Assembly: GCA_017654855.1 (NCBI GenBank)
Contig: CM030336.1
Span: 1 to 64,000, forward strand
Direction of reading: 5' to 3'
Source: Podospora anserina
Lineage: Eukaryota
Length of the DNA: 64,000 nt
Positions 39,598-56,765 of the stretch are shown in pieces. The notes beneath the pieces are model-generated. The model was not told where the DNA came from, searched no databases, and was given only the letters and a program-made list of their open reading frames with translations. How positions within the stretch are numbered: the stretch's first letter is position 1; each line of letters opens with the position of its first letter. Made by a program: the position numbers and the translations under genes.

Positions 39598-40175
39598 GAT
39601 TAGACGGGAATTGCTTGATCAGAAACTATCAGCAACAAGCATATTGGGACTGAACTGGGGGTCTGCCGGTTATAAGTAGACTGTGACAGGTTGCCGCTCA
39701 ATAAATGAAGACACCACCCTCCTCCAGCGTTTCAATGAGGGGCCAATTGGAACTTGGAAGCAATTAAGTTTCGGGGGATATATCCGAGAGGCTTTCGAAA
39801 CCCTCGGCATAGTAGAGCTGGAGTTGTGAGGAGAGAGCATACACAACTTACTTGATATACCTTACGTCCCAGTTGGCATACAATGTTTCCTGTCGACCCA
39901 AGCTGGAAGCTTAGCACACTCTCTTGGACAGGTCGGTCACCTGTCCGATTGGAACACCTTTCCCAGAAAATAAATTGTTTGTTTTCTCTCCGGAATACCT
40001 TGCTATTACAAAGTACTCTATACCTGGTAGGTATCGAGATATATGCATAAATGTCAAAAGTAGTGCACCCCTAAACCGGGATGGAACCACCGGCAGTCCT
40101 GGCAGCACCCTCTGATGCAGACAGAAAAAAACATAATCTTCATTTCGGAATGATAGTTAAAGGGGTCATATCCTA

Positions 40176-40991
40176 CTACTTCCACGCCAAAAGCTCTCCA
40201 TTCATAACCCCAAACCACGATCCCTTCTTCTCCTTCCATTCATGACAAGCTTTGACAAAGTCATCAACTTCCTTGGGTGTTGCATGGCCTCCTCCGATAG
40301 TCCTTTCCCGAAGCTGGCTTCCCTCCCTGAATCTTTCCGCACAACTGTCGCCAAAGAATTGGACTTCCTCCTCGTCCGAGAAGCACCATGAACTTGCCGT
40401 GCTCTTCACCTTATGCTGTTCAAACCCAGCTTCCAGTGCAGCGTTCTTCAAGCCCATCCCCATGTCCGGACTGCCTCCGGTCTCGAGAATCGTGCCCGTG
40501 ATCGCCTTCTCCCACACGTCGAGTCTCTTATCCACCTGAAACCACCTGGTTGTGCTCATGATCATCTCCTTGCATCCAACGACGCCTCCTGGCTTGAGCA
40601 CTCTTCGGACCTCTTTCAGTGCAACAGTGGCGTCGCAAGGCAGATGCATAATGACCATGTGTAAATGTACGACATCGAAACTATCGTCCTCAAACGGTAG
40701 GCGAGAGGTCACATCTCCGACCACAAAGTCGCCATTGCCAAGGGAGCGAGAAGTAAATGTGCTGCGTGCTGCATTGAGAGCTGACTCGGTGATTTCGACG
40801 CATGTCACCCTCCCTTGAGGCACGAGAGCAGCCAAGTCGGCAGATATGGTTCCTGGTCCGCACCCAATGTCGAGAATGTCGAAGTGGGACTTGATGTGAG
40901 GAATGAGATACGCTGCATCCCGCTGGGCGGTGCGCCGAGAGTGAGCGGTGAGAACGGCGGCTGAGTGGCCGTGAATGTATTTGTCTGCCAT
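40176..40991 (-). CDS. Class I SAM-dependent methyltransferase (UbiE/Methyltransf_11/31-like)
   Basis: ILDIGCGPG, LPFEDDSFDVV and RVLKPGG motifs. ATG at 40991. Confidence 0.92.
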   Translation of the reverse strand: MADKYIHGHSAAVLTAHSRRTAQRDAAYLIPHIKSHFDILDIGCGPGTISADLAALVPQGRVTCVEITESALNAARSTFTSRSLGNGDFVVGDVTSRLPFEDDSFDVVHLHMVIMHLPCDATVALKEVRRVLKPGGVVGCKEMIMSTTRWFQVDKRLDVWEKAITGTILETGGSPDMGMGLKNAALEAGFEQHKVKSTASSWCFSDEEEVQFFGDSCAERFREGSQLRERTIGGGHATPKEVDDFVKACHEWKEKKGSWFGVMNGELLAWK

Positions 40992-41137
40992 TTTGGATGG
41001 TTGATGGGAAGAATCGCCTGAATTCAAGCCGCGGCCGGCATGGAGATGGAGATCCGAAGAGGCCTACCCCACCCGGCGTCTAACTTTGCAAGTTTCTGAG
41101 TCAGCAAGGATGCTGAGTTGTTTCTACACTATTTCCA

Positions 41138-42415
41138 CTACAACGTCTTAAGCCACGTCATGATCGCCCTTGTCATGACCCCATCCTGATATCCCAAAGC
41201 AGCATCGAGCACCGCTTGGACGTGCGCTTCACCTTCACACTCAACCATGATCCTCTCCCAACTCCCCAGTTCCTCCGTCCAGTCTTTACTCTTTTCCTGT
41301 TTCGCAATCACGGTCTGGGTATTGGCGTAGGACTCCCCGCCAAAGAATCTACAGTCGTCCAAAAACACTTCTGCTGTCCCAACCGTGATGAACAGCTTCT
41401 TCACCAACCTGACCCCACCTTTTCCTTGAAACACAGCCTGCCACACCTTGTCTGCTCCCTCAACTCCGCACAGATTTGCCCAAACCTCCTTCTCATCCCC
41501 TTTCCAAGCCTCTCCAAACTCATCCACCTGTATTCTGGTCAGGTAATCTCGCTTTTCATTCATTTTGTAGCTTCCCATTGGGGAGTCCATCGACTCCTTA
41601 TGCAGTCTGACAAACGGACTAATCATCACCGCGGCCTGGAACTCTTCACCACTTTTCATCTGGAGCATTGGGGCATAAGGGCTGGGGTTCTGGATGTGGG
41701 ACAATACTGATCCAACCAGCGTACCACCTGCACTGTCGCCCGCTAAGATAATGTCCTCGGCAGAGATGCCGAGACCAGAGGAGGTGCACATAAGATAGGA
41801 AAGGGACGCCACGCATTGGATGAGCTGTGCTGGGTATGGGTGTTCCGGGGCTAGGCTGTATTCGAGAATGATGATTTGCTTTGCTCGAACTGAATGGCCA
41901 CATGCGAGGATAAAGGGCATGTGAGGGGATCGCAATGGATTCACGAAACCACCGCCGTGAAAGTAAAGAAGCGTCGGGGCTTTCCCAGACCTGGATTTGG
42001 CTTCAACATTGCCCAGTGTCAAAATATGCAACACTGCTGGCGGCAAAAGAGCAGGATGAAGCTCGGTCGATGAAGCTGGTAAAGTGACGATCTGGTGTGC
42101 GATCTTGTGCTTGCTGCAGTAGTCCTTGATTGTGGACCCCGTGGAAACACGACGGACCAGCCATCTGAGCAGAGGGGTGGGAAATATGCTTCTTTGCGTG
42201 CGCAGAAATGTCAGGGCGCAGTTTTGGCGCCAGTGAAGAGATTTCTGGTTAGAAAACAAGAATGCCAGCGACCATTTTGTTACTGCTGATGATTAGCTGC
42301 TGTCAACCCGCTACAACGCGAAAAACATACAGAAGAGGGGAAACAAGGCAACCAAGGAGATCCAGTCAAGGACCTCCGGACTGGCGTCTGGGCGCAACTT
42401 TTGTGTTGATGTCAT
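41138..42415 (-). CDS. Alpha/beta hydrolase, HSL/Say1-like esterase or deacetylase, 2 exons
   Basis: HGGG oxyanion motif, YSLAPEHPYPAQ, GDSAG nucleophile, E(V)FLDD and a C-terminal His. Intron 42283-42330 (GTATGT...GCTAAT...CAG) joins the ATG at 42415 in frame. Confidence 0.88.
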
Positions 42416-44091
42416 CTTTGACAAAATCACGAGAAATCGAGCCCCGAGGTGCCTAAAAACTATTATGCATCATTGGGCTTTATTAACTGTTGTCATTCAA
42501 CAGTTGAATGGGTTGAGGTCCGAAGGAACCGAACAAAGTCAGGCCTCGGCAACGGCGGAAGCCGCCTACCTATTTTTAGCTTAGCCTCGGATGACAATGG
42601 ACGCTAGCTCTGAACCCCTGAACCCTTTTTCCAACGTCTCAGACGGTGAGGATACCCGCATCAACACCCTTTAACTAGAACTACAAGTCTCCCCAGATCA
42701 TATTTCCAAAAGGTTGAAAACATACCATGAAAAGGGGACCATTTCATCTGGCATAGCTCACAATGCTGTGCAGCAGACCCACAAAATCGAGCCCAGAATC
42801 TCTTCAACAATGTCCCTCAGCTCCTTGACGTTGAACAGCTGGGCAATCCTCCCGGCACGATAACTAAAGAAAAGGAGGAAACCTACACGCGAACCATCCA
42901 AAATGCCTACTCGCTATACTCGCCTCAAAGCAAAGAAAGTATGAATGGTAAGAGCGTGTCCTCCTAAGGGTACCGATGTCCAGGGACCTATTTGCGAGAT
43001 ATACCGCAGCGACATTATTCGGGCTCGCCGAAATGGTTACACGGCTCTTCCTTTTCCGGCACTCAACCAATCAAGATCGTTTTCCAAGACAAATATTGCC
43101 TCCGATCCCATATTTAAACAAGCCCTGCATTGAACTTTGTGGCATTCAAGGTCACCAAAACTCTCCAAGAAGCTCTGAGAACACTTCATCAGTCAAGCTT
43201 TGACGGTCATCTATGGGTAGACATGTTCGTATCAATCGTTGAGCATTGTTACCAGGCTAGGTACTTTGACGCAGAGCATACCTATAAGGAGCCTCGTCAG
43301 TAGAGGTATGGCTTGAAAGTAATTCGAGACACAGTTGCAATATTTTGTTGCAGGACGACAACGTTTTAACCGATCAGCTTGTAGCCAATCTCGACCCAGA
43401 AACAAATTTCCTTAAACTAAAGAGTGAGAGTATAACCACATCGAGAAGACCAGAGCATCAGTGCTTTGTCACATTGCTTAGCGTATTGACGGTAATAAGC
43501 TGGCAGAGTTTGTCGCGAAGGTATCATGCGATCCGGTATACTGTCCGCTGGTATTGAACAGCGAAGGCCGAGAACAAGAGAACATATCTTACAATGCTCT
43601 GACAGGACAAGATTAGCCACGTTTTGGCACCATCATGCTTGACCTCGGATACTTGTTGCAGCAAAGCTTTGCTGCCAATACCGAACTGAAACCTACTGTC
43701 TCTGCGCTCCTACATCGGTGTGAAAGGTTGAGCAACATCGACTGGTTCCGACGGTTGGGTTAGTGTTTGGGAAACTGGATGGTGCCGACAATCAGCTTTT
43801 AGGAAACAGGTCATTACAGTTGTGAGATGGGCACGGTTATCTAATCCCCCGAGCCCCTGAGACCATAAGGTGTAGGCCAGCAACCCAGAAATTCGATATA
43901 TACCTAAGGTCTTGATCAATGAAACGAGTTTAGGTTTCTAGATTTCTATCAAATTCGACTACCATATTCCCTGTCCAATCAGTGTTACTTTCCAATCAAA
44001 ATGCCGGTAACTTGGTTGTCGTTGGGAATGAAGTCAAGAGTAGAAATGAGCTGGCCATTGGAGAACCACGCCATCTGTCAATTCTCTCCCA

Positions 44092-45645
44092 TTAGGGTGA
44101 AAGACGGGCAGCATCACGAGGAAATAACACCGTCTCGCGAATGTCTTCCAAGCCCAAGAAACCCTGTACAAGACGGTTGATGCCCACTGCAGATAAGTCA
44201 GCACGATTCCCATGTCACAAGGATCAACAAAAAACACTTACACCCGAAGCCTCCCCAAGGAGGCATGCCAATTTCGTGGGCCGTCATGTACGGCCTCCAT
44301 TCCGGCGTTTCCGGGTCAATCGGATGAGGTCGGTTGGCAAATGCGGCTGCTAGGTCTTCAGCGCTGTGGAGTAGTCGGCATCCAGTAACACATTCCTGTC
44401 CTCTGAGAATGACATCGAAAGATTGGGTTGTGTCATCCTGTTCATCAGAGGGATAGATATTGCAGGACCTCAAATGTTTCGGGAAGTGAGTGATGAAGAA
44501 AACATCGGTTGGAGGGCTGACGTGGGATTCTTCGCTGGCGAGGAATCTGCCGAGTGCTGCTTCTTCGCTCCTAGTGAAGTCTTTGTCATCGTCGGACTCG
44601 ATACCTATAAAGTCTCTCAGAATGGTTTTGGCTTCATTGAAACGGATGCGTGGGAGCTTTCCGCTCTTTCCAAGACCTAGCTTGAAAGTGCCAGCTAGGG
44701 GGTAGAGTCGTTTTGCGGTGTTGGTCAGCGTAGTGTATTTGTCCTGACTCTGCAAAGAGTGTAGAAGTGATACCAGTAGACTATCAGCAAAATCGAGGAT
44801 CTCTATCCAGCTATGCTGAAGATTGAATACAAGTTCCAGCATGGTGAACTGTGACCAAATCAGCATTTTTCAAACTAAGAAAAAGGGGGATTCTCTACCT
44901 CGGTGAGATGTCTGCCATCAGAAACAGGCTCCCTCCGAAAAACTGTGTGAAAGTCGTAGACGCGCTCCAGGTCGGCTGAAAGTGCCATTCCAAGGTGTAT
45001 CTCTCCTGTTGGCGCCAATCTGGCTGTCCTGCCGAAGTATGGAACTGTAAACAAGTCGTCCTCCTCTCCTGGGAATTCGTAGCCAACAAGTGCAGGGGTT
45101 GGGACGTGGTAAAAGTCATGGAGCTTGAGGTATTCTACCGCCAGCTCATGGACCCCCGAGAAAAGCTTGAAGATTGCTGCTGTTGCAGGAACACGAGCAT
45201 CCAGGAGTCTGTTGTCGAGTCTCTCTTCGATCAACTTCGTAGGAGATTGGATCGAAGCTAGAACCTCCCCTGAAGCTCCATGAAGGACATTGCTATGAGC
45301 ACCTGGAGTCTTGGCGGCCGACAGGTTGTGGATATCGCAGAGCTCGATTGGAGTGATGTCAGAGTCAGTGTCATGAGCCACCGATCGAGCGGTAACCCGA
45401 ACAAGTGACTCTGGCGTTAGAAAGCTGACGGTATCGAAGACATCATTGTCAAGGCCATTTTTTGATTCCACTGTAGCTTGAAGAAAATGCCCATTGACGC
45501 ATCTGAACAACACCGCAACTGAATTGCTGTCATCGGATAGAACTGGGCTGTTGTGAACGCGAACATCCAAAGACTTGATGTCGGTATCGCCGTTCGACAG
45601 GTGAGATGGGCCGGGTTGGGATGAAATCTGCCTAGCATTAAGCAT
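44092..45645 (-). CDS. Divergent class IIb aspartyl-tRNA-synthetase paralog, 3 exons, about 482 aa
   Basis: RLDNRLLDAR, motif 1 (FYHVPTPAL), motif 2 (FRREPVSDGRHLTEF) and motif 3 (GMPPWGGFGLGINRL...LFPRDAARLSP*). Introns 44849-44898 and 44187-44241 give a continuous frame. The start codon is the least certain part. Confidence 0.9.
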
Positions 45646-45997
45646 CGTGCACTGTTGTACGGTATTGAACAAGATTACTTTCCCTTGAGATCAGGTTGGG
45701 GGGTAATTTCAAGAGCAAATGCCATGTGTCACTAGATAATGAAGGAATTTATGGCAATAGCGGCGGGATGAACATGTCGGTCAAGAGGTTTGGCCAAGCA
45801 TGTTGAATCGGACTTGTGCACTGATGGTAGCACGAAGCTGAGCAAGACAGGTAGCGCTTGGTAAGAGTTTGCGGGGATTAGTCGTTCTGCGTGGATGCAA
45901 TCCTGCCTCATGGCACCCCAACCAGGTATAACACCCCAGAATGGTTGTCGATGAATGACCTTGCGTGCCTTGGGTTGTCCTCGCTTCATAATTTTCT

Positions 45998-46857
45998 ATG
46001 ACTTTCAAAATGGCCATTGATACACCCACTTCCTCAACCAAGACCCTCGAGCTTGAGGTTGTTAGATACGAGCAGCTCAGGAGCAACGACAACGCCGAGG
46101 TGAGGAAGCTAGCCCAGGCCTTGTCTGACCAGGGAATGCTGTTCTTGGACCTCCAGGGATCCACGGCAAAGCAACTCCTGAAAGACCTGCAAACCGTGAT
46201 ACAGCATCAGCGAGCCTTTTTTGAACAGCCGCAGGAGGAGAAGTCCAAATATCACACGGGCATTCGATACAACGGGTGGGTACAGGTCGAAATTCTTCTT
46301 TTCTACTCATCGCTAATCCAGGCCCTTTTCTCAGATTTTACACTTCCCCCATTGGTGTCGAAAAGATTCACCTTGGTCGCAAGGAGCAAATGGCAGGGGA
46401 CCGGTCTCAACTTCCCGAAGCACTTCAGCTGGTGGCAGACAAGGTCGAAAATGTCTCTTCGTTCATCGACAAGATACTCCGCGAGATTGGCATGACGTTG
46501 GCAAGCTCGATGGATGAACGATTCCCGGCCAGTTTGCAGGACGCCACCAGACCCGGCCAAAGTCATCTAACATTGGGTATCTCAAAGGCACGTGCCGGGA
46601 CACCTCTAATGGACGGCCACACCGATGACGGTTTCCTCACTCTCACGTTCTATGACGAGCCCTTTCTCGAAGTCTTGGATAGGTCTACAAACGAGTGGAA
46701 TTTGGTTGAGGTGAATCGCAACATGCCAATCCTGAATGTAGCTGCCCAGTCGGCAAAGAACTCGGGAGGTCGGCTGTACAACCCCTGGCATAGGGTGAAG
46801 ATGGGGGAGAACGAGATAAACTTGGTCATGTTTGATCTGTTTGAAGATTCGAATTAG
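45998..46857 (+). CDS. Fe(II)/2-oxoglutarate-oxygenase-fold protein (DIOX_N/IPNS-like), 2 exons
   Basis: DIOX_N-like N-terminus (FFEQPQEEKSKY), HTDDGFLTL and a distal WHRV. Intron 46276-46334 joins the two ORF-track frames. Confidence 0.85.
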
Positions 46858-47037
46858 TAGACTGCTAAGCTTGAGACGTTTCGTTTTTTGTCGTTGGACG
46901 GGATGGCAATGGGTTAGTAGCAATACATATCATACCTAGGTATCAAACACAAAAGCCACCTCATGTTTTTTGCGACAAAACTTTTACAACTATCGTTTAG
47001 GTACCCAGATACACCCAAAATTTCCATCTGCTTCTTT

Positions 47038-49218
47038 TCAACCCAAGACCAACAGTCGGTGGATTTCTGCCCGTCCAAGATCATACCCAGTGACAAACTC
47101 ACAGCATCGGAGCCCATCCCTCTTCAGCTCCGCCCAACATGTCTCAAAGCCAGTGGCCTTCCGTTGGATCATTTCTGACAGACAAAGCCTCTCCCTTCTT
47201 CCCAGCAACTCTCCATTGTCAGCCACCCATTGCTCCAAGTCAAGAAAAGCACGCGCCAGACCAAGCAAAAAGACGCTGTTGATCATCGGGTGCTGAGCCC
47301 ACCCTAAAAGGTCATGGGAAAACCTGCCGGAGTCATTGAGGTTCTCATCTTCTGGACGGCCAATTATGTCTCCTAAACAGGTCGGCTGTGGCAAACCCCT
47401 ATTCTTCATCATTTCGAGACCCAGGGCCACCAGGTCGGGGCTGTAGCCAGGCCAATGCTGCTCATCCATGCAGGCAATACCTGTGCCCACCGGCTTGTAG
47501 CCCTTTTCTGCTCGCAATATTTGCAAACAGTTGGACACCAGGGGTGTGATTGTCTGGTGAGGGGAGCTGATGATATTTTCCAGGAGTCCTGCGTGGGCAA
47601 ACCACAGTGGTAGTAGGGCGTCTATTTCAACTGCCGACTTGTGTATCTGGATTGGTGACTTTGGCTCAAAATCGTTCATCTCGCACAGCGACCAGGTCCT
47701 CGTGGCGGGAAAAGTCGGATGGCTGACCGCAGCATCATGACGCGAGGGGTCAAAGGTCTTTTCCAGGCTCTGATAGCCACCAACACGCCCCCAATAAGCC
47801 TCGCCCATATCCTTGCCATGTGGTCTGAGGGAGTCAATCCAGTTCCGAAGCAGTTCAGTCTCGACGTGAGTGAAAGCACCAAACATCCTCCCTTTCCAGC
47901 CCAGCTCCCGCATCAAAAGGCTCTTGCTGCTGTCACCTCTGCATACCCATGGCTTGGAGTCTGCCAAGGCGTCAAGGAACTCATCCTTCCAACCGTCATC
48001 ATCCTTGGGGCTCGAAGGAGGAGCAGAAAACCAAGATGACAATTTTCTCTTTCCAATCCGGGCGCGACTCGTACAATGAATCTTGGTGGCAATGGTGGCT
48101 TTCTTGCAGATGATGTCAACCAGCTTGTCCTCGTAATCATCCACGGTATCCCTGTCATCGAGACTCTGCCCGAGGCAATAGCCAGCCTGCACACGCCTCC
48201 ACGCTGTCTGCTGGTCCATGATGCCCGTGTTCTGAACAATCTCCATAAAGTGTGCAATGTTGCCAATCGCCATCGCGCAGTGACCCGAGTGCGCGTTGTC
48301 GATCGATATGTGCAAAGCATAGTAGTAGGGCGAGATCCCAAACTCGGGCAGCTCCTTGTTGGCTTTCAAGACCCCAATGGCAGGCTGCTCGTAGTGGAGA
48401 TTAAACCCCAGAATCTCAGGTAAAAACTCGTTAGGAAAGACGGAAATGAGGAGTTGTCCAATGGCATATCTCCAAATCGTCTCATCCTCCATGCCATGGC
48501 GTGGGTGTATGAAATCGAGCGAGTCGCCGTTGGGCAGGTCCACACCCACGCTCTGGAGAAGCTCCTTGTAGAGCAATATGTGGTTCTTTCCCAGATCCCC
48601 ATCACCAAGCTCTTCTGAAAAGATTTGCCAAGCATCCTTTGTCACGCCCCGAAAGGCGAAGGGGGTTGTGACCTGATGAATCCGTGCGAGCCATGCGCCA
48701 TCGGTGTAGTTCCACGGTGCGCTGTTCTTGAGAAACATGCAGGCTTCTTCGAAGCTTTTGAACAGCTCAGGTCCACCACCAAGCTCCCTTCGACGCATGT
48801 AGGCTTCGAATTCCAGACCCACATCGAGCTGGATGTCTTGGATGAAGCTTTGGAGACGGGAGGCATCAAAGGTCGCGATGTTGAGAATGCTGCGAGATCG
48901 GTCCTTGTACTTGGCCATCCGGAGTCCTTGTTCGAGTAACGAAAGCAACGTTTCTCGAACTTGGGGCAGGATTTCTGGGAACCGCTCCAGATTTTGAACT
49001 TTGTGGTAAAGATCTTTGAAGTGACGCATTCGTTGCTGCCGCTTCCTTTCTAGGCGTGGTGACTTGGGCTTTTCGTCGGTCAAGATCGCTATGTGGCCTG
49101 TTGTGGAAGCATTGGACCAAGTTGGGAACGAGAGTCGTGGTTTTCGCCATGGGAACGAGATGTAAAGAAAACAGCTAAGAGGGACAATTATCAAGAGTAA
49201 AGATTCCAAGTTGAACAT
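47038..49218 (-). CDS. Heme-oxygenase-like diiron oxidase (HDO, iron-containing redox enzyme family), 726 aa, with hydrophobic N-terminus
   Basis: DGAWL, EELGDGDLGKNH, LPEILGFNLHYE and HISIDNAHSGH give the E-H-E-H-D-H ligand pattern of HDOs. GRMFGAFT..E..LLRNWI segment follows. Single exon. Confidence 0.82.
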   Translation of the reverse strand: MFNLESLLLIIVPLSCFLYISFPWRKPRLSFPTWSNASTTGHIAILTDEKPKSPRLERKRQQRMRHFKDLYHKVQNLERFPEILPQVRETLLSLLEQGLRMAKYKDRSRSILNIATFDASRLQSFIQDIQLDVGLEFEAYMRRRELGGGPELFKSFEEACMFLKNSAPWNYTDGAWLARIHQVTTPFAFRGVTKDAWQIFSEELGDGDLGKNHILLYKELLQSVGVDLPNGDSLDFIHPRHGMEDETIWRYAIGQLLISVFPNEFLPEILGFNLHYEQPAIGVLKANKELPEFGISPYYYALHISIDNAHSGHCAMAIGNIAHFMEIVQNTGIMDQQTAWRRVQAGYCLGQSLDDRDTVDDYEDKLVDIICKKATIATKIHCTSRARIGKRKLSSWFSAPPSSPKDDDGWKDEFLDALADSKPWVCRGDSSKSLLMRELGWKGRMFGAFTHVETELLRNWIDSLRPHGKDMGEAYWGRVGGYQSLEKTFDPSRHDAAVSHPTFPATRTWSLCEMNDFEPKSPIQIHKSAVEIDALLPLWFAHAGLLENIISSPHQTITPLVSNCLQILRAEKGYKPVGTGIACMDEQHWPGYSPDLVALGLEMMKNRGLPQPTCLGDIIGRPEDENLNDSGRFSHDLLGWAQHPMINSVFLLGLARAFLDLEQWVADNGELLGRRERLCLSEMIQRKATGFETCWAELKRDGLRCCEFVTGYDLGRAEIHRLLVLG

Positions 49219-49580
49219 GATGGAGCAATTTTCTTGTGACTGAAAGCGAAGAGGTGTGTGCTTCCATTACGAAAAAGGAGATCGGTCTCTGTGGGCATTC
49301 TATATCTAGTATTCAGGGCTTCATAAGCTCCTGTCTTTCATCCCGCGTCCCGCACTGAGTCATGTCAGCAAATCTTGTTGGGAGAGTGATGGATATGACC
49401 CTACAACGTATGGAATCATGGGTCATGGTCGGGTTCCGCAGTAAACAAGGTGCAAGTAAATGGAGACTGTTGATCCGAGAATGAAAACTGCTAAGGTCGA
49501 TTAGCTGCCATACAAAGCGATCACGAAATAGGTAGCACGGACCGTCAATACGACTCAAGGTTTCTTGGTAATCATTTCAA

Positions 49581-52150
49581 TTATTGAGCCTCCCTACTGT
49601 GATCAGATCTAGCCAAAGCCTGGTCCAAACTCTCCAACAGACTGGGTACAATGCTGTCCCCGAACAAATGGGGATGTACGTCCATAAGAGACCTCAACGC
49701 TTCTAACAGTCCTAGCAGCTGTCGAGAGTGGAATGTGATGTCTTGATCGAACTTTGACGCCACCCCTGGTCCACGTCTTTGAATCCACATTGTGCTGTCC
49801 AAAAGACTACTGAGAGCAAGACTATCCCAAAATATACCCCCTTCCATGATACCCTGAACAGGGGAATAAACGGTGTAAACTATTCTCGAAGCAGGGGGTA
49901 TGATGAGTATATCGTCCTGCTCCAAAATAAAAGCCCTTTGTGCATCACTTCTCTCAAGACTCTTCAGCGCAGGGTCCGTATCAGTGTCAGAAAGAGAGGC
50001 AAAGATGCAGATTTTGAGACCCTCAAGATTACGCAACCAAACCCCACTCATGGTGGCAAAGGATGGCCCAAAGCAGAGATGGGGAAGGGTGACGGCGTTG
50101 AAGTCAGTTCTGATCTCAGGCAAAACCTCGGGGCTTCCTAGTTGTTGGCATGCACTGGCACTCCTGCTAGTGCGTAGTCTGAGTCGCTCTACCAGACAGT
50201 CTAGTAGACGGAAACGTGGAAGCATGGTCAACAAAGGTCGATGCGAGTGGGTCATGTTCCTGAGATTGGAAGTGCCTCGATCGTGAACAGAGTTGGCAAG
50301 TTCATCCTCCAATAAACACAAAGAATCAAGCATGGCGTGCATACCAGAATCTAGAAAGGTTTCCTTGATGATCACTGGCTTTTCGAACACTTGGTGTGCT
50401 TTAGCGGCCTGGATAGCTTCGTCGGAGGTGAGATAGAGCACATCAGCATCCATGGGAGATGCAGCACGACCGGGCAGGACCGCATTACCTTGCGTCCACA
50501 TCGAGGCCCATTTTGTTGCTGCCTTCAGCGGTGGTGCCTGGTCTTGGTGGGTTTCAAGGGGGTCTTGCCGGGCCTCCTTTGCAAGCATGCCGTCGATATA
50601 AGGCATAATTGTAGGGTAATATTGGTTATGAAGCGTTTCCTCCAGGCTGGCCAAGCCTTTTCCTGTGATTGGAGCCGTTCCAAGATATAGAGCTGCTGAG
50701 GTGAACAGGTCGGCTTCCAACTCGCTGGATTGTGGTGAGGTTGGGCTAGGTTCCGAATGGAGTCGAGATGGGCCTGAAAAGCTGGGGGTTGTGGGTTCTG
50801 ATGTTATGGTCGAAGGTTGAGGTTGCCCAAAGGAGTTCATGGCTGAGGGCGAAAAGAACAAGGCTGAAGATTGCCAGCACATGGGATTGTGCATATCGAT
50901 GCTGTAGGACAGGTCTGCGCTGTTCCAGTCCCACATCGAGTCAAAGAGTGGCATCGCTTCCGAGGGCGCAGAGGACATCTCCTGGAAGTTCTCTAGCTGA
51001 TTCAGCGACACGTCTAAGCTGGGCTGTGTGTCCCGAAGTTGGTCCTGTGCAGGTGCTATCTGAGCATCTCCCGGGCCATCATCATCGCCTGTACTCACTT
51101 CCGCAGGCGAGGTTTTCAGCGGCATGGTATGCTGGTGTCTTGGCGAAGATGGCAGGCAAGCTTCGCCCCGAGCAGCGAGGACGCCGAATCGGTCCCTTCG
51201 CAAAAGATGGGCCGCAAAGTGACCGGGTCTGATGTCACGCAAGAAGACTGTCGCCTGTGCGTCCACGGCGACACGGCCATCCTGACTGGCGACCCACAGC
51301 TCCTCCATTTTGCCATCAACTGTCGTCAAAGCCAATGTAACCAGATCAAAGTCGCGATGGGGCTGCAGAGGAGCCTCGTTCAACGTCTTTAACCGGCCAC
51401 CAAGAAGCGCCTGTCGATGTCGGTGTAATAACACAGCATTGAGGCGCGGCAGAAATTCGTTGAAGAAGTCGGGGTAGCTTGTTGCACACGCTCGGAGCAT
51501 GTTCATTTGTACCTGACTAGCACAATTCCAAGCATAGTGAAACACCACGTCGGGAGACCAGAGCGCAACAATAAATGCGAGGTTTCGTAGACGGTTGTTT
51601 TCATTGTATGCCCGTTTTCGCTTCTTTTTGGTAGCCTCTTCACGCTTGTTTCTGTCTGCCAGGTGGGATAAAGCCAGCAGCTCTTTCCACTCTGGTTCTC
51701 TATTTGCCTGTGATCGACGCGAAGAAACGATCCTGGCCACAGAGCAAAACGTGGAGATGCGTGTGTCGAGGTGGTCACACTGGTCAACAAGGCCGTCGCG
51801 AATGCTTGAGAATGTCGAGATGGGCGCGTTGCTAGCCCATGCTTGATACAGCTCCTCGAGCCACGCTCGAGTCTCCTGATCAAACCCAAGGCTGGTGTCA
51901 TGACCAGGCTGAAGCTCCCAACCCCTATTCAACCCCTGTCAGCGTTTTTGTGAGCACGGGCCGTGGCCGCAGCAACTGGAACTTACTTTGACGGTGGGCC
52001 GTGCACCATCCCCTTGATAGGTATGAATTTCGATGAGATTTTGCGGCGTTGCTGTAGGGCTGGGCATAAAGGCGTACGGGAAGCCCTTGGAGGAAGCTGA
52101 GAGCCTGTTGAGGGTATGGGTGTAGCCCTTGGAGGAAGGAGGTCCGACAT
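49581..52150 (-). CDS. Large protein with basic NLS-like patch, S/P-rich linker and degenerate JmjC/cupin-like C-terminus (possible regulator), 2 exons
   Basis: The 783-codon open frame is extended by intron 51925-51986 (GTAAGT...GCTGAC...TAG) to an ATG at 52150. KKKRKR patch. C-terminal ILEQDDILIIPP..VYTVYSP..IMEGGIFWD resembles JmjC beta-strands. The CDS is secure; the function is tentative. Confidence 0.65.
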
Positions 52151-53314
52151 CTCAAGCAGAAGAAGGGTGGGTGACAATTGTTCATGTATGCCTCGATGTA
52201 ACTTGGCGTACTTTTTGCCTCAAGTCCTCCACTTCGGACAATCCCTCCCTCCCTGTTATTATGGCGTCATGTTGATGTTCTGTTTGGTGTGTTCTGGCAA
52301 TGGGAATCCTTCACATTGCTGTCAACAAGAAGGCAACATTGTGAGAGTACATGTCAAACAGCATAACCCACGCTCCCATCTGACCAGTAAGGAAGCAGAG
52401 GGACAAAATATGAGGTAATGAAAACTGATGCATGTAAGCCGGATACACGGAGCCCATCATGCAGAGGCCTTGATGGAGGTACTTTCAAGGCTGAAGCCTG
52501 CCAAAATGCCAGGACAAATTGTACTATACGCTGCTGTGTAACTCATGGTACGGATGATCCGCGAAAGACATGGGGTAGGCCCATGCATCATTGAGACGCT
52601 GAGCGTGGTGCCTGTGAAGATGCCAAGAGCTAGATGCGGTTTATTAGGTGGGTTTGGGGGCTGTGGGGCGGGCCGTCTGAGGCGCGTGGCTGCTGAACCG
52701 TTGGTGTCTCTGTTTCCCACCTCCAACCACTCACATCCGAGACGGACTCACATGTTCGCAGTTGGGCCTCACCAACGGCTTCGAATTCAGCGGGCCCCGG
52801 AGTTGAAAACCCTATGGGGCTCTCGGCGCTGTCCCGTGTTTCGGTCTGCGTGTCTTCCTTGGTTCTTTGAGCTCCGCGCCGCAACGGTGAATGAGAAATG
52901 GGGCAAACATTCCCTACAGTACACCGACTCGATCCTGCCTCGTGGCACCTGCCTCTAAGGTAGAAACATCCGCTCTACTATGCCTCCAAGGGATATGACT
53001 AGCTCCAACGCGACTGCTGACTGGAAGCTGGAACGAGATCCGGGCCCCGATTTGCCCGATGACACACCAAAGCTGAAAGGGGCATCGGTTTAAAATGGAC
53101 CTGTTCTTTGACGAACCTGTCGTGCTGGATGGCGAAATTGAATGCAAATGCACCTGCATCTCCTATTCTCCAACCTGCGCTGCAACACAACCGCATCTTG
53201 CCATCAAATCGACCTCACTCCCTCACCGCCGGCTGATTGACGACAACCAGCATCTAGAGATATGCAGCCTTGAGAAGCCAGCGACCACTCACGTCCTTGC
53301 CCGCATCGCACAAC

Positions 53315-55062
53315 ATGGCGACCAAAACGACCACCGTGACCGAGTTGCACACCATCTCGTTCGACCCCTCCACCACAAACTCGGGCGCGACTTCACGGAA
53401 AAGCCAGAGCCGCGATGCAACAGTCGTGGCTTCTGATTCAGAACCAGAGGCGTCTCCCATCTCGGCCAAGTCAAGGCCGGCTCTGCTGCCCAAAGGCCGC
53501 GCCATCATCGTGACCACCCAGCTTTGTGGCCTGCTGTTCTTCAGCAGCTTCTGCAATGGCATCATCGTCATCGCTCTACCTGCCATGCACTCGGAGCTGG
53601 GTCTACAGGAGAGCCTCCTGGTTTGGCCCACCTCGAGTTACTATCTCACGGCCGGTTCCTGTTTGTTGCTGGCCGGCTCCATCGCCGATGTTGTCGGTGT
53701 GAAAAAGGTCAACCTCGTTGGCTCTTTCCTCAGTTCCATCTTTGCTCTGGCCTGCGGTCTGGCACAAACTGAAGGTCAAATAATAGCATTCCGGGCCCTT
53801 CAGGGCATCACAAACGCCATCATTGCCCCCTCAGCGATATCCATCATCTCCAATAGCGTGGCCGAGGGCCGGCCGCGGAACATGGGGTTTGCATGCCTCG
53901 GATTCAGCCAGCCGCTCGGGTTCAGTCTTGGCTTGGTGCTCACGGGGGTCATGACAGACACGGTGGGGTGGCGGCCAGCCTTCTACCTTGTAGCCGCCTG
54001 CAGCATAGTTTTGTTTACCATTGGGATATGGTCACTTCCGCAAGACATTCACTCATCGGGTAGCCAATCCGTTCTGAGGCGGCTCGGAGGTGAGATCGAC
54101 TGGATCGGAGTAGGCTTGGCCAGCATGGGGCTGGCCCTGTTTTCATACGTTTTAGCGTAAGCATCAACACCTGTGAAACATTCGGCGGGCCTGCATAAGC
54201 TAATTGAGTGATGCTTCTAGATCCCTGTCGGCCAACATCCAGGACATTCGTCAGGCTGGCACCATCGTTTTGCTCGTAATTTCTGTCTTTTCTGTTCCAT
54301 CCTTTGTGGGGTGGATGCACTACCAGACCAAGAAGAACCGCACAGCACTGATCCCGAACTCTCTCTGGCGAAGCGGTGTGTTTACGAGCGCCTGCGTCAT
54401 GGTTATGCTGACCAACGCTTTGATCAACTGCATGGAGTTGTATAGCAGTCTATTGTAAGCCTGTTTCCGAAGCTTCAAGGTCCATGTCTAACGCGTTGTC
54501 TCCTTAACTTAGCTTCCAAACTATTCAGGGACAGTCTGCTCTGACGGCGTCCCTTCAAGTGCTTCCCTCTTTGGTAGCCGGGATTATCACCAGCATTCTC
54601 ACGGGCATATTTGTCAACCGCATGCCTGTATTCTGGACCGTCCTCATCACTACAATCGTCAGCACTGTCTCGGCCTTGTTGATGGCCCTGGTCCGTACCG
54701 ACCAAGTATATTGGGAGAACGCCTTTGTTGCGCAGATCCTCTCACCCATCAGCTGTGACCTTCTCTTTACAGTTGGCCTCCTGATCATTTCGGATGTTTT
54801 CCCGAAGCACATGCAGGCTTTAGGCGGCGCAGTGTTCAACACGTGTGCTCAGCTTGGGGTCGCCATTGGGCTAAGTGTGACGCAGGTCGTTGCCTCATCG
54901 GTCACAAACAACTCGCAATATGACAACAAATCATCCCCCGAAGCCCTTATGGAGGGATATAGGTTAGCTTTTTGGATCATGTTTGGTTGGATGGTGTTTG
55001 TTTGTGGGGTATGCGCTGTTGGATTGAGACGAGTGGGTGCAATTGGTGTCAAGCGTGACTGA
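53315..55062 (+). CDS. MFS drug:H+ antiporter-like transporter (DHA2 type), 3 exons
   Basis: GSIADVVGVKK (motif A), FRALQG and IDWIG, with many hydrophobic helices. Introns 54157-54220 and 54455-54512. Confidence 0.92.
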
Positions 55063-55471
55063 TGCAGTGTTGGGTTGTCCGATGATTGGTGTTCAAGCTT
55101 GTTCAATGGGTAGACTGATAGATTGGTAGACGGACGGGCCTATAGATACAGCATTCTTCGGTTGGAATTTAGGCACAATAGATAGGTACATACTTTGCAG
55201 AATCGAGTCTAACGCAGACGTATGTGCCCGTGAAAGAGAGTTGGGTTGTAGCTGTATCAACCGGACTCGCCCTCGGATTTGAGCCAACTTTGCATATATA
55301 TATGCCGACCAAGGGACATCCCGCGGCGATTTCCCACTCGGGAATTTCCCCTACCTGGAATGATATGCATGACGGATGTCATGCAGACTGGATGCATCCA
55401 TGATTCTCCCCGATTGGAAGAATGCGACGGGCGAGTAGGAACAGTGCCGCTTGATGACTTCGGCACAACTA

Positions 55472-56765
55472 CTGTGGTTACGTACAAAAGTTTTGCCCCC
55501 TTGTCAAGTACCGCCCAGGGCCTTGTTTTTTTGGCTAGGCCAACTTCGGCCAAAATTCTACCGCAATTTCCTCCAGACCAGTATTTTCCACCTTTCAACA
55601 CCACTTAGCCAGCCAGCCAGCACCACAATGGCTCCCAATCGCCACCTTACTACTGAAGAGCGTCAACGAATTCGTACCCTTTATTTCGACGGCCACCTTA
55701 GCCAACCCCGAATTCAAGAAACCACTGGTTATACGAAATACTAAATCCGCTATACGATACGAGCCCCGGCGGCCGAGGTCGCCCCACGATCTGGCCGACC
55801 ACGCGTTATTACGGCCGATCAAGAGCTCGAGCTTATTCGGTATGTGTGTGAATCAAAGGCATACCGTCGGATGAGCTTCCTGGAGCTTTCTATTACCCTT
55901 TTCAACTCCCTTCTTAACTGGATTACGATTCGCAACGCCCTTTACCGCCACGGATTTCGCCGTCGAGTTGCTCGGAAGAAGCCTCCTATTTCAGAAGCCA
56001 ACCAGCAAAAGCGACTGGCCTAGGCTATAGAATATAAAGACTAAACTCTCGAATAATAGCGTATAATCCTTTAGAGTAACGAAACCTAAGTAGTTAGTGG
56101 TCCTCACCGTAAGTAGTATATTACACGCCGAATCGACGAGGAATAGGACCCTACTTATATCGTTAAAAAGCACTAGAGAAAAGGAGGGTGGATATTCTGG
56201 AGCTACTTTTACGGCTTAACTAAAGGCCCTAGTATCTTCTAGGAAAAGGAATGGGGATCGATTAATAAGTATTCTTATCGAAAGAATATCCTTCCTAACG
56301 TCTACGAATTTATTAACGATACCTTCGAGCAACACCATTTACAGTTTTCTTTTATGTAGGACGGCGTACCTAGCTATCGAGCGGCCGGTACGAAGAAGGA
56401 TCTTAAGAATAGGAAGATTAGAGTAGTTGATTAGCTTCCTTTTTCCCCAGATTTAAACCCTATTGAATCCTGTTGGAATTGGATGAAGGATTATATTGAG
56501 GATAAATACGGCCTTGAGGAGAAGCCGTCGTACGCGAAGTTGAAGAGGTACGTGGAGGAGGCCTGGCAAGAGCTTCCGGAATCTTACTTTCAAACGCTGT
56601 TGGATTCGATGCCCAGTCGGTGTGAGGCAGTAATTGCAGCGAATGGTATGCATACAAAATACTAGCTATAGATATGGTGATTATTTTGTAGAATACAATC
56701 GTCAGGGTGGACCTTGACTAGCGCGAGTACTTGACAAGAAGGCAAAACTTACCCCTGCACCACAG
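55472..56765 (+). mobile_element. Tc1/mariner (impala-sized, 1294 bp) DNA transposon with RIP-broken transposase at 55628-56665
   Basis: TA TSDs. Imperfect ~40-bp TIRs CTGTGGT...AAGTTTTGCC..CTTGTCAAGTAC. HTH region with RSGRPR, ARKKP and SPDLNPIE. Premature TAA/TAG codons. Confidence 0.92.

What the first reader, a model, noticed from the sequence alone, without database searches (positions are those of the whole stretch)
40176..55062. Candidate core-less biosynthetic cluster: AspRS paralog, HDO diiron enzyme, Fe oxygenase, methyltransferase, hydrolase and exporter
Seen: seven intact genes in 15 kb, several closely spaced (hydrolase stop to methyltransferase ATG ~147 bp; AspRS-like and oxygenase divergent across ~350 bp; oxygenase and HDO convergent 180 bp apart). 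No PKS, NRPS or terpene synthase is in the window, and the block sits beside a RIP-degraded region and between transposons. Known: HDOs (SznF, BesC, FlcD/E, VlmB) oxidise amino acids to N-hydroxy, oxime, alkene or azoxy products. In bacteria aaRS paralogs act in such pathways (SerRS VlmL with HDO VlmB in valanimycin; MetRS-like hydrazine synthetases). Inference: a fungal pathway to a small modified amino acid or pseudo-dipeptide, possibly N-oxidised or N-N bonded, which core-enzyme-based cluster finders would miss. I do not recognise it as a described cluster.
Basis: partly seen in the sequence, partly recalled or inferred. Interest (0 to 1): 0.9.

Follow-up and report, generated by a model that had tools for sequence, protein, structure and literature searches.

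The report
Conserved fungal AspRS-paralog/diiron-oxygenase gene cluster
A Podospora-like fungus carries a small gene cluster, conserved across three classes of ascomycetes, that joins a remodelled aspartyl-tRNA-synthetase copy to two iron oxygenases and a transporter; it probably makes an unknown oxidised amino-acid-derived compound.

Summary
The seven genes are real, intact and spaced as described. The AspRS-like, oxygenase, JmjC-like and MFS genes show spliced transcripts. Only part of the block is a conserved unit. In 56 metagenomic fungal loci carrying a homolog of the 726-aa heme-oxygenase-like diiron protein (HDO), an AspRS-like gene lies beside it in 8 and the matching 2OG oxygenase in 8. 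These represent about 5 lineages with two gene orders. An MFS gene of one of two subfamilies usually follows. All linked HDOs fall in one of two major clades (SH-aLRT 99). The methyltransferase and hydrolase were found in 0 of 56 loci. The unnamed 783-aa gene is a degenerate JmjC-like protein that neighbours the HDO in some named genomes. The HDO N-domain matches the N-oxygenases RohS, SznF and HrmI (Z 16-18) and keeps a diiron-type ligand set. The AspRS paralog keeps the OB fold and ATP motifs, but its aspartate-binding residues are replaced (QSPQ..K to PTGE..L, R485 to L). The pocket varies across the paralog family, and lichen-type members keep it. I read this as a core-less cluster built on an aaRS-derived amino-acid-activating enzyme. 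Product and tRNA dependence are unknown. A sister-clade HDO/2OG pair (SsOxy1/2) was knocked out in Sclerotinia in 2026, also without a product.

The parts
44092..45645 (-). AspRS-derived paralog (482 aa). Exons 45645-44899, 44848-44242 and 44186-44092. N-terminal OB fold plus class II catalytic core. ATP motifs kept, aspartate pocket replaced.
   Evidence: Pfam tRNA-synt_2 on both large exons and on the 94%-identical P0121 (E 2.1e-42). Third exon seen. Spliced joints 44186/44242 and 44848/44899 in runs X1 and X2. Alignment to yeast AspRS. Pocket table. Model aligns to AspRS over residues 3-480, Z about 20.
45998..46857 (+). Fe(II)/2OG-type oxygenase (266 aa, intron 46275-46333), divergent from the AspRS-like gene.
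   Evidence: Pfam DIOX_N E 4.4e-7 and 2OG-FeII_Oxy E 1.8e-3. HxD...H conserved in 6 aligned copies. Joint 46274/46334 with GT..AG in X1, X2 and X3. Co-located with the HDO in 8 of 56 loci.
47038..49218 (-). Membrane-anchored two-domain heme-oxygenase-like protein (726 aa). Predicted N-terminal helix 2-21, HDO domain about 55-357 with diiron-type ligands, and a second HO-like helical domain about 513-726.
   Evidence: PF14518 E 2.8e-28. E202/E203, H213, E268, E277, H303, D307 and H313 invariant in 26 sequences. Model pLDDT 84. RohS Z 17.7, SznF 16.2, HrmI 16.2, FlcD 13.2 over residues 55-357; PfHO Z 8.9 and PqqC 8.2 over 513-726.
49581..52185 (-). JmjC-like protein without the metal-binding triad (783-aa main exon, plus an upstream exon after intron 51924-51985; the 5' end is approximate). 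Accessory member, possibly regulatory.
   Evidence: No Pfam hit even at E 5. 26 homologs, some named 'JmjC domain-containing protein', with locus tags adjacent to the HDO in Apiosordaria backusii and Pestalotiopsis fici. The window copy has S-F-A and Y where some relatives have H-L-D and H. Covered by contigs of all 4 runs; intron joint in X3 and X6. Found in 0 of 56 metagenome loci.
53315..55062 (+). MFS transporter (541 aa, introns 54157-54220 and 54455-54512), divergent from the HDO/JmjC-like side.
   Evidence: Pfam MFS_1 on both parts. Both joints in all 4 runs. Orthologs beside the HDO in L010 and L002. A different MFS subfamily takes the same place in L002, L046/L011, L050 and L052/53/56.
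40176..40991 (-). Class I SAM methyltransferase (271 aa). A neighbour; membership of the cluster is not shown.
   Evidence: Pfam Methyltransf_25 E 2.4e-24. Unspliced RNA-like contigs in 4 runs. No hit in 56 loci.
41138..42483 (-). Alpha/beta hydrolase (Abhydrolase_3, also Say1_Mug180-like) with a 5' intron at 42283-42330. A neighbour; membership of the cluster is not shown.
   Evidence: Pfam E 3.7e-23 and 9.4e-14. Joint 42282/42331 in all 4 runs. No hit in 56 loci.

Best explanation
The core of the finding is a conserved, core-less metabolic gene cluster of Pezizomycotina. Its fixed members are (1) an enzyme derived from eukaryote-type AspRS, (2) an Fe(II)/2OG-type oxygenase and (3) a membrane-anchored heme-oxygenase-like diiron oxidase (HDO). 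An MFS transporter almost always lies beside them. Accessory genes vary by lineage: a degenerate JmjC-like protein here, and a P450 or a GGACT-like gene elsewhere. Proposed mechanism, all inferred. The aaRS-derived enzyme still binds ATP and forms an acyl-adenylate, but of an amino acid other than aspartate in this lineage. It then passes the acyl group either to a tRNA or directly to an amine. The HDO oxidises an amino group or side chain, most likely by N-oxygenation as in its nearest structural relatives. The 2OG-type oxygenase adds a second oxidation. The MFS exports the small product. Shown here: the gene identities, the co-location across lineages and two gene orders, retention of the ATP motifs and OB fold, replacement of the aspartate-binding residues, the diiron ligand pattern, and transcription and splicing of four members. 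Not shown: the substrate, the product, use of tRNA, co-regulation, and membership of the methyltransferase and hydrolase.
For: Co-location. tblastn of the window's proteins against 56 HDO-bearing metagenome loci found the AspRS-like gene in 8 and the matching oxygenase in 8. A ninth locus, L011, has an AspRS fragment at its contig end. These loci represent about 5 lineages (L001/L010; L002; L046/L011; L050; L052/53/56). Two gene orders occur: 2OG and HDO are convergent in the window and L010, but on the same strand in L046 and L052. Of the 14 loci with 10 kb on both sides, 4 have the trio and 10 do not. On an HDO tree of 55 rows, all 5 labelled trio rows lie in one clade of 32 and all 6 partner-free rows in the other clade of 23 (split SH-aLRT 99; 1 change; 2 and 0 of 500 shuffles as low). 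In named genomes the HDO, AspRS-like and JmjC-like proteins share contig lengths, and some have adjacent locus tags: Apiosordaria 377674/377675, P. fici PFICI_10847/10848, P. pseudoanserina QC764_503100/503120. HDO. Fold and ligand evidence is. aaRS paralog. Motif 2 (FRRE..RHLTEF), D471, E478 and the motif 3 Arg are kept. QSPQ..K306 is replaced by PTGE..L and Q484-R485 by R-L, invariantly across 20 paralogs. Of 151 rows (query plus the 150 best representatives), 101 of the 142 that cover the site have QSPQxxK. Thirteen of the 123 that cover motif 3 have the paralog signature NR in place of (E/D)R, and these show at least 8 different pocket versions. Copies linked to the cluster in L046/L050/L052 keep QS(T/S)Q..K and QR, yet they are only distant relatives of yeast AspRS (100 bits over 236 aa). 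The model has an OB fold at residues 24-109 and aligns with AspRS over both domains. Expression. Spliced contigs are described. A sister-clade HDO/2OG pair gives shared knockout phenotypes in S. sclerotiorum (PMC13608281, passages read).
Against: No product, substrate or enzyme activity is known for any member. The trio is absent from most HDO loci (10 of the 14 with full flanks), so the HDO family does not need the aaRS paralog. The RNA-like contigs barely cover the HDO gene, and they cannot rank expression, so co-expression is not shown. The runs are only guessed to be RNA; the spliced joints are what argues for RNA. The MFS beside the HDO belongs to two different subfamilies. The JmjC-like gene is missing from all 56 metagenome loci. 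In the window's clade the oxygenase lacks a basic residue at the place where the L046/L052 copies have KRV(R/K), so its use of 2OG is uncertain. The aaRS model is of modest confidence (pLDDT 66.7).
Confidence: 0.6

Rival explanations
1. Self-resistance. The cluster, or an unlinked pathway, makes an AspRS inhibitor, and the paralog is a drug-insensitive spare AspRS that keeps translation going.
For: aaRS copies inside clusters often serve as resistance genes (established knowledge, recalled). The paralog keeps the OB fold, motifs 2 and 3 and the C-terminal FPRD..RL tail.
Against: In the window's clade the residues that hold aspartate in yeast AspRS are replaced: Q303 to E, K306 to L and R485 to L, invariantly in 20 sequences. 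The pocket differs among family members. A spare AspRS would have to keep it.
Confidence: 0.05
2. Catabolic or detoxifying cluster. The MFS imports an external amino-acid-like compound, the two oxygenases degrade it, and the aaRS-like enzyme activates or conjugates it.
For: Fungal catabolic clusters also join a transporter to oxygenases (established knowledge, recalled). The direction of MFS transport cannot be read from sequence. The HDO/2OG pair in Sclerotinia affects stress tolerance and purine and glutathione pools.
Against: I know of no catabolic pathway that uses an aaRS paralog. A varying specificity pocket together with varying accessory genes (P450, GGACT-like, JmjC-like) is the usual pattern of biosynthetic cluster families. 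The nearest structural relatives of the HDO are all biosynthetic N-oxygenases.
Confidence: 0.12
3. Macromolecule modification. The paralog aminoacylates a protein or an RNA, as the LysRS paralog EpmA does with EF-P or GluQRS does with tRNA-Asp, and the oxygenases hydroxylate the adduct.
For: EpmA with the EpmC hydroxylase is a precedent for a class IIb paralog working with an oxygenase (recalled). JmjC and 2OG enzymes modify translation factors and tRNA (recalled). The paralog keeps an OB fold that could bind RNA.
Against: A transporter gene lies beside the unit in every lineage with enough flank. The distribution is patchy and clade-limited. The pocket varies. All three points fit a secreted small molecule better than a conserved cellular target.
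Confidence: 0.08
4. The whole 15-kb block, including the methyltransferase and the hydrolase, is a single seven-gene pathway.
For: The methyltransferase and hydrolase are 147 bp apart and lie 1.6 kb from the AspRS-like gene's 3' end. One contig of run X6 spans both genes. Tailoring genes differ between related clusters.
Against: Neither gene gave a hit in any of the 56 related loci. That includes L010 with 6.7 kb and L002 with 6 kb beyond the AspRS-like gene.
Confidence: 0.15
5. The genes are chance neighbours in a gene island between repeats, with no functional link.
For: The island is small and is flanked by RIP-degraded DNA. Most HDO homologs have other neighbours.
Against: The same three families are adjacent in about 5 lineages of at least two classes, in two gene orders, and only within one HDO clade.
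Confidence: 0.03

Closest known systems
SsOxy1/SsOxy2 of Sclerotinia sclerotiorum (SS1G_07964 2OG oxygenase + SS1G_07963 PF14518 protein; J Fungi 2026, PMC13608281; passages read)
   Same: An adjacent 2OG oxygenase and a long PF14518 protein, flanked by a transporter. SS1G_07963 (P0081) is 41% identical to the window's HDO. The authors also suspect a cluster with an unknown product.
   Different: SsOxy2 sits in the other major HDO clade. The passages I read mention no tRNA synthetase ('tRNA' occurs 0 times); they name a flavoprotein as the neighbour. Its 2OG partner was not compared here.
Bacterial HDO N-oxygenases: RohS (azomycin), SznF (streptozotocin), HrmI/BelK (nitro-cyclopropyl amino acids)
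   Same: Same fold (Z 16-18 over about 250 residues) and the same E..G.G....H helix motif. HrmI/BelK work with a 2OG oxygenase (HrmJ/BelL; recalled).
   Different: Sequence identity is 11-15%. The fungal protein is twice as long, with a membrane anchor and a second HO-like domain. It has no fused cupin like SznF, and its substrate is unknown.
aaRS paralogs in bacterial N-N/N-O pathways (SerRS VlmL with HDO VlmB in valanimycin; MetRS-like hydrazine synthetases)
   Same: An aaRS-derived enzyme sits beside an HDO or other N-oxygenating enzymes in a small-molecule pathway (recalled; the MetRS-like FuzG cassette was seen in PMC13149037).
   Different: A different aaRS class and family (class IIb AspRS). 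No aminoacyl-tRNA transferase such as VlmA is encoded nearby. The amino-acid pocket of the fungal paralog is itself remodelled.
ErdS, the fungal AspRS paralog fused to DUF2156 (ergosteryl-aspartate synthase; PMC8913301, passages read)
   Same: A duplicated eukaryote-type AspRS recruited to non-translational chemistry in higher fungi.
   Different: ErdS is a fusion of about 1000 aa that still makes Asp-tRNA-Asp. The window's protein stands alone (482 aa), has no DUF2156 and lacks the aspartate-binding residues.
Fungal arginine-containing cyclodipeptide synthases (RCDPS, AnkA/AvaA; highlight PMC11610942 read in full; the original paper is not held)
   Same: Core-less 'unknown-unknown' fungal clusters that draw on the aminoacyl-tRNA pool.
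   Different: RCDPS are described as having no conserved domain, with key residues C193, DDXXE, Y392 and Y515. By eye I saw no DDxxE in the 726-aa or the 783-aa protein, and the former is a clear PF14518 member. No sequence comparison was possible because no RCDPS sequence was at hand.
Asparagine synthetase A and EpmA (tRNA-independent class IIb derivatives)
   Same: The catalytic core (model residues 144-473) aligns with archaeal AsnA at Z 13.9. These enzymes show that the fold can ligate an adenylate to an amine without tRNA.
   Different: AsnA and EpmA lack the N-terminal OB domain, which the fungal paralog keeps.

Membership tests
Canonical aspartyl-tRNA synthetase (eukaryote/archaeal type) | Class II catalytic core with motif 2 (fRxE...RH..EF) and the motif 3 arginine | tested here: met
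   FRRE..GRHLTEF and G(I/L)NR align to yeast R325/E327/R333/H334/E337/F338 and R531. These positions are invariant in 20 paralogs. Motif 3 reads NR where canonical enzymes read ER (13 versus 106 of the 123 rows that cover it).
Canonical aspartyl-tRNA synthetase (eukaryote/archaeal type) | Aspartate-binding residues: the QSPQ loop, K306 and R485 (yeast numbering; their roles are recalled from the yeast structure papers) | tested here: not met
   The window and P0121 have PTGE..L and C-R-L at these places. 101 of 142 representative rows have QSPQxxK. Cluster-linked copies in L046/L050/L052 keep QS(T/S)Q..K and QR.
Canonical aspartyl-tRNA synthetase (eukaryote/archaeal type) | N-terminal OB-fold anticodon-binding domain | tested here: inconclusive
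   The model shows five strands and a helix at residues 24-109 (pLDDT about 80), and AspRS structures align from residue 3 onward. Pfam does not detect tRNA_anti-codon even at E 5. Anticodon contacts were not assessed.
Heme-oxygenase-like diiron oxidases/oxygenases (HDO, PF14518) | Seven-helix HO-like fold | tested here: met
   PF14518 E 2.8e-28, above the cut-off. RohS Z 17.7 (rmsd 3.2, 248 aligned), SznF Z 16.2, HrmI Z 16.2.
Heme-oxygenase-like diiron oxidases/oxygenases (HDO, PF14518) | Three His plus three carboxylate ligands on the core helices (E-x9-H; E; H-x3-D...H) | tested here: met
   E203-x9-H213, E268/E277 and H303-x3-D307-x5-H313 are invariant in 26 sequences. The EELGDGD..NH stretch aligns to EFGSGN..SH of RohS. 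Which residue binds which iron was not checked in 3D. The spacing comparison with SznF is recalled.
Heme-oxygenase-like diiron oxidases/oxygenases (HDO, PF14518) | Iron binding and O2-dependent substrate oxidation | not testable with these tools
   Needs purified protein.
Fe(II)/2-oxoglutarate oxygenase | HxD...H facial triad | tested here: met
   H132-x-D134 and the distal HRV histidine are present in the 5 of the 6 aligned copies that reach it. Pfam DIOX_N passes its cut-off; 2OG-FeII_Oxy is below it (19 versus 23 bits).
Fe(II)/2-oxoglutarate oxygenase | Basic residue (RxS) that binds the 2OG C5 carboxylate | tested here: inconclusive
   The window, L001 and L010 read GE(N/K)EI(N/D)L at the place where L046 and L052 read KRV(R/K)N. 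The exact register is uncertain.
JmjC-domain oxygenase (the 783-aa gene) | HxD/E...H iron-binding triad in the cupin | tested here: not met
   The window copy and P0141 have S-F-A and Y where P0146 and P0160 have H-L-D and most relatives have H. No Pfam JmjC hit at E 5. The 'JmjC' name comes from UniRef labels of two homologs.
Fungal secondary-metabolite gene cluster | Co-location conserved beyond shared ancestry of gene order | tested here: met
   Trio found in about 5 lineages with two gene orders, confined to one HDO clade.
Fungal secondary-metabolite gene cluster | Co-regulation of the members | tested here: inconclusive
   Spliced contigs of the AspRS-like gene and the oxygenase occur in the same runs (X1, X2). 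Contig depth cannot rank genes, and the HDO is hardly covered.
Fungal secondary-metabolite gene cluster | A metabolite that depends on the genes | not testable with these tools
   Needs deletion or heterologous expression with LC-MS.
RCDPS (arginine-containing cyclodipeptide synthase) | Family sequence with C193, DDXXE, Y392 and Y515 (AvaA numbering) | not tested
   No RCDPS sequence was available (paper not held). I only inspected the two long proteins by eye for DDxxE.
ErdS (AspRS-DUF2156 fusion) | C-terminal DUF2156 aminoacyl-tRNA transferase domain | tested here: not met
   P0121 has only tRNA-synt_2. The gene ends at 44092 with the AspRS C-terminal tail.

The most novel reading that the evidence does not exclude
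The AspRS-derived paralogs are the specificity-determining 'core' enzymes of an unrecognised class of fungal clusters. Their amino-acid pocket has diversified in the way an NRPS adenylation code does: at least 8 versions, from an aspartate-type pocket in lichen fungi to a hydrophobic or acidic one here. They would feed an activated, perhaps tRNA-bound, amino acid to a membrane-bound HDO N-oxygenase and a 2OG-type oxygenase, giving N-oxygenated or N-N-bonded amino-acid metabolites. Genome-mining tools that look for core enzymes cannot see such clusters.
Probability: 0.3. Interest if true: 0.85.

Novelty: new variant of a known kind. Interest (0 to 1): 0.7.

Why it matters
Cluster finders key on PKS, NRPS, terpene and a few other core enzymes, so this unit is invisible to them. 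Yet it recurs in Sordariomycetes and lichen-forming Lecanoromycetes, and by protein names also in Dothideomycetes, Trichoderma and Colletotrichum. It would add an aaRS-derived activating enzyme with a variable pocket to the fungal biosynthetic toolkit. It would also give the first substrate context for the large family of about 720-aa fungal HDO proteins, of which 538 homologs were scored and all 120 listed are either unnamed or generically labelled (hypothetical, 'heme oxygenase-like', 'iron-containing redox enzyme'). Deleting a sister-clade pair strongly lowers virulence in Sclerotinia, so the products may matter biologically. Podospora is a tractable, harmless model in which the question can be tested directly.

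Tried and rejected
RCDPS identity of the 726-aa or 783-aa protein: considered because RCDPS are tRNA-dependent 'hypothetical proteins'. I could not test it by sequence, since the original paper is not held and the highlight gives only motif names. I dropped it because the 726-aa protein is a clear PF14518 member.

Gene order in named genomes therefore could not be read directly.

Earlier findings of this scan: nothing by place, sequence or words.

Protein Atlas for the HDO: only unnamed PF14518 clusters.

A sequence profile of the HDO against PDB gave only a 30-residue match to RohS at E 0.65. Foldseek E-values were all above 0.001. The fold assignment rests on VIA-align Z scores.

RNA evidence: no listed holder is on record as RNA. 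The four runs laid are RNA only by guess plus their spliced joints. The HDO gene (47.3-49.3 kb) had next to no contig cover in the four runs. I take this as no evidence either way.

JmjC-like homologs were sought in the 56 loci with 26 query proteins and none was found.

Literature searches that found nothing on this cluster: (only ErdS). Supplementary tables of the Sclerotinia paper (metabolite lists) are closed and might bear on the product.

No complex prediction was run, because I make no binding claim.

Full report
**What is there.** The window is fungal. The best hits of its proteins are Podospora pseudoanserina (94-96%) and Apiosordaria backusii (53-78%). Positions 1-36.5 kb have about 20% GC and hold no real ORF, as expected of RIP-degraded DNA. 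A gene island follows at 37-58 kb. Pfam scans and ORF maps give these genes:
- NmrA-like, 36.9-38.0 kb
- DUF1996, 38.3-39.4 kb
- SAM methyltransferase, 40176-40991(-)
- Abhydrolase_3 hydrolase, 41138-42483(-)
- class II AspRS-like gene, 44092-45645(-)
- DIOX_N/2OG-FeII_Oxy oxygenase, 45998-46857(+)
- PF14518 protein of 726 aa, 47038-49218(-)
- a 783-aa ORF with no Pfam hit, 49581-51932(-)
- MFS transporter, 53315-55062(+)

Contigs of four public runs were laid on 38.0-57.9 kb. The runs are labelled RNA only by guess. The contigs skip GT..AG-bounded introns exactly where the reading frames break: 44187-44241 and 44849-44898 (AspRS-like; X1, X2), 46275-46333 (oxygenase; X1-X3), 51924-51985 (783-aa gene; X3, X6), and 54157-54220 and 54455-54512 (MFS; all four). 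These genes are therefore intact, transcribed and spliced. The HDO gene was hardly covered, which says nothing either way.

**Is the block a unit?** An alignment of 26 HDO homologs was used to fetch 56 HDO-bearing loci from metagenome contigs, with up to 10 kb of flank. I ran tblastn with 14 window protein pieces against them.
- The AspRS-like gene was found in 8 loci: L001, L002, L010, L046, L050, L052, L053, L056.
- The matching oxygenase was found in 8: L001, L002, L010, L011, L046, L052, L053, L056.
- L011 ends inside an AspRS fragment.
- The window-type MFS was found in 2 loci (L002, L010).
- The methyltransferase, hydrolase, 783-aa protein, NmrA, DUF1996 and the IDO-like gene were found in none.

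After merging near-identical contigs the trio is present in about five lineages. By best hits these are relatives of Cladonia (L046 80%; L050 and L052 55-63%), Diploschistes/Dothidotthia (L002), and an unplaced lineage whose AspRS-like gene is closest to that of Periconia, 70% (L001/L010).

Gene order differs between lineages. In the window and L010 the oxygenase and HDO are convergent. In L046 and L052 they lie on one strand. A second MFS subfamily follows the HDO in L002, L046/L011, L050 and L052/53/56.

Of the 14 loci with 10 kb on both sides, 4 carry the trio and 10 do not. I built an HDO tree of 55 rows: the window, 28 named proteins, and 26 of the 56 loci that I chose as full-length and non-duplicate. 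L050 and L052/53/56 were left out because their HDO frames are split. The tree divides into two clades at SH-aLRT 99. All 5 trio-labelled rows are in one clade and all 6 partner-free rows in the other (one change each; 2 and 0 of 500 shuffles as low). In the other clade the usual neighbour is an MTS-type methyltransferase (7 loci).

The trio, usually with a transporter, is thus a conserved unit of one HDO clade. The methyltransferase and hydrolase are not shown to belong.

**The seventh gene.** The 783-aa protein has 26 homologs.
- Apiosordaria backusii (377674/377675)
- Pestalotiopsis fici (PFICI_10848/10847)
- Podospora pseudoanserina (503100, two tags from the AspRS-like 503120)
- Coniella, Periconia, Lasiosphaeris and Astrocystis

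Two homologs are labelled JmjC-domain proteins. The conserved C-terminal third looks like a cupin. Where some relatives have H-L-D and most have a later H, the window copy has S-F-A and Y. It is therefore not an iron enzyme here. It has a basic KKKRKRAYNENNRLRN stretch and may be regulatory (inference). It is an accessory member, absent from all 56 metagenome loci.

**The HDO.** The model (pLDDT 84) has an N-terminal helix (residues 2-21, probably a membrane anchor) and a domain at 55-357. That domain aligns with the N-oxygenases RohS (Z 17.7), SznF (16.2) and HrmI (16.2), and with FlcD (13.2), well above the other helical proteins listed. A second HO-like domain spans 513-726 (PfHO Z 8.9, PqqC 8.2; weak). 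E203-x9-H213, E268/E277 and H303-x3-D307-x5-H313 are invariant in 26 sequences, and the first motif aligns with that of RohS. This is the ligand pattern of HDOs. The residue-by-residue comparison with SznF is from memory.

**The aaRS paralog.** P0121, the 94%-identical Podospora protein, aligns with yeast cytosolic AspRS at E 2e-47.
- Kept: motif 2 (R325, E327, R333, H334, E337, F338), D471, E478, the motif 3 arginine and the C-terminal FPRD..RL.
- Replaced: Q300-S-P-Q303 to P-T-G-E, K306 to L, E344 to V, and Q484-R485 to R-L.

The roles of K306 and R485 in holding the aspartate side chain are recalled from the yeast structure work. These replacements are invariant in 20 paralogs and are present in the window itself.

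A library-wide search returned 150 representatives, which I analysed together with the query as 151 rows. Of the 142 rows covering the site, 101 have QSPQxxK. Of the 131 covering the second site, 106 have QR. Of the 123 covering motif 3, 13 read NR (the paralog signature) and 106 read (E/D)R. The NR group shows many pocket versions, including APTGE.HL, TQTGE.HL, AQTCEYHH, AQTAELHQ, SQTVELHH and AQSTQHHK.

The copies linked to the cluster in L046, L050 and L052 keep QS(T/S)Q..K and QR. They are nevertheless far from housekeeping AspRS (100 bits over 236 aa to yeast).

The simplest reading is that a duplicated AspRS was first recruited as an aspartate-activating enzyme and that its pocket was later rebuilt in several lineages. 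The model (pLDDT 66.7) keeps an OB fold at residues 24-109 and aligns with AspRS over both domains (Z about 20). AsnA matches only the core (Z 13.9). Retention of the OB domain leans towards continued use of tRNA, but this is not shown.

**The oxygenase.** The HxD...H triad is conserved. The closest solved relative by sequence is a plant 2OG dioxygenase (E 6e-5). In the window's clade I could not find the basic residue of the usual 2OG-binding RxS, whereas L046 and L052 have KRV(R/K) there.

**Mechanism proposed.** All of this paragraph is inferred. The paralog adenylates an amino acid that is no longer aspartate in this lineage, and passes it to tRNA or to an amine. The HDO N-oxygenates or otherwise oxidises it at the membrane. 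The second oxygenase adds a further oxidation. The MFS exports the product.

I put 0.6 on 'conserved biosynthetic cluster for a small oxidised amino-acid derivative built on the aaRS paralog', and about 0.3 on N-O or N-N chemistry specifically. Use of tRNA versus direct ligation is about even.

The rivals, listed with their evidence, are a resistance copy, a catabolic cluster, macromolecule modification, the full seven-gene pathway, and chance.

**What is known.** A September 2026 paper (PMC13608281; passages read) deleted SS1G_07964 (2OG oxygenase) and SS1G_07963 (PF14518 protein, P0081, 41% identical to the window's HDO) in Sclerotinia sclerotiorum. Both mutants lost infection cushions and much of their virulence. 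The authors propose an unknown cluster flanked by a transporter and a flavoprotein. No product was found, and 'tRNA' occurs nowhere in the text. That protein lies in the other HDO clade.

ErdS is a known fungal AspRS paralog, but it is a DUF2156 fusion that still uses aspartate (PMC8913301, passages). RCDPS clusters are the known tRNA-dependent core-less fungal clusters (PMC11610942, read in full). The original paper is not held, and no sequence test was possible. I found nothing in print on an AspRS-like/HDO/2OG cluster. The library lacks most subscription journals, and supplements were closed.

**Verdict.** The finding is a new variant of a known kind: an aaRS paralog working with N-oxygenase-type iron enzymes, so far described only in bacteria. 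Its remodelled and variable aaRS pocket makes it a good and directly testable target.

Noticed in passing
window 55467-56767: Very deep RNA-like contigs in all four runs match here but differ at 42-43 places. Every difference has A or T in the window where the contig has G or C. The window copy looks like a RIP-mutated duplicate of a highly expressed gene located elsewhere. Two ORFs here gave no Pfam hit.
   Followed up: partly
window 8100-8900: A GC-rich (53%) island inside the 20%-GC region is a tandem array of a unit roughly 200 bp long (the repeated peptide-like frame ILAAARHCLRAQASL.YRTG... recurs). It has no Rfam hit and no long ORF.
   Followed up: partly
window 60177-61675 (-): A two-exon gene with weak similarity to indoleamine 2,3-dioxygenase (PF01231 E 1.5e-4, below the cut-off) lies beyond an AT-rich spacer at 58-59 kb. 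It gave no hit in any of the 56 loci.
   Followed up: partly
L008, L012, L017, L019, L028, L032, L049 (about 1-2 kb upstream of the HDO): In the other HDO clade the conserved divergent neighbour is an MTS-type SAM methyltransferase of about 290 aa. This recalls the N-methyltransferase plus HDO logic of streptozotocin (recalled). It is unrelated to the window's methyltransferase.
   Followed up: partly
window 46780-46857; L046:8073-8624; L052:8904-9473: After the distal His, the window-clade oxygenase reads GE(N/K)EI(N/D)L where the lichen-type copies read KRV(R/K)N. It may have lost the usual 2OG carboxylate-binding arginine.
   Followed up: partly
window 40116-42483: The methyltransferase and hydrolase have much deeper contigs than the trio, and one 2278-nt contig of X6 spans both. 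The hydrolase also hits the steryl acetyl hydrolase family Say1_Mug180 (E 9.4e-14).
   Followed up: no
L046:12538-13674 (-); L010:2369-3805 (-) and L002:708-1637 (+): Accessory genes beside the trio differ by lineage. L046/L011 has a weak GGACT (gamma-glutamyl cyclotransferase-like) hit between the HDO and the MFS. L010 and L002 share a P450.
   Followed up: no
P0175 (914 aa): A protein with a canonical-pocket AspRS core at its C-terminus (residues 593-912) and about 590 unexplained N-terminal residues. This is a different fusion from ErdS.
   Followed up: no
window 38112-39404 (-): The DUF1996 gene is split by several short introns (38325-38375, 38574-38626, 39030-39087, 39350-39399), seen as CT..AC joints in X1 and X2.
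   Followed up: no
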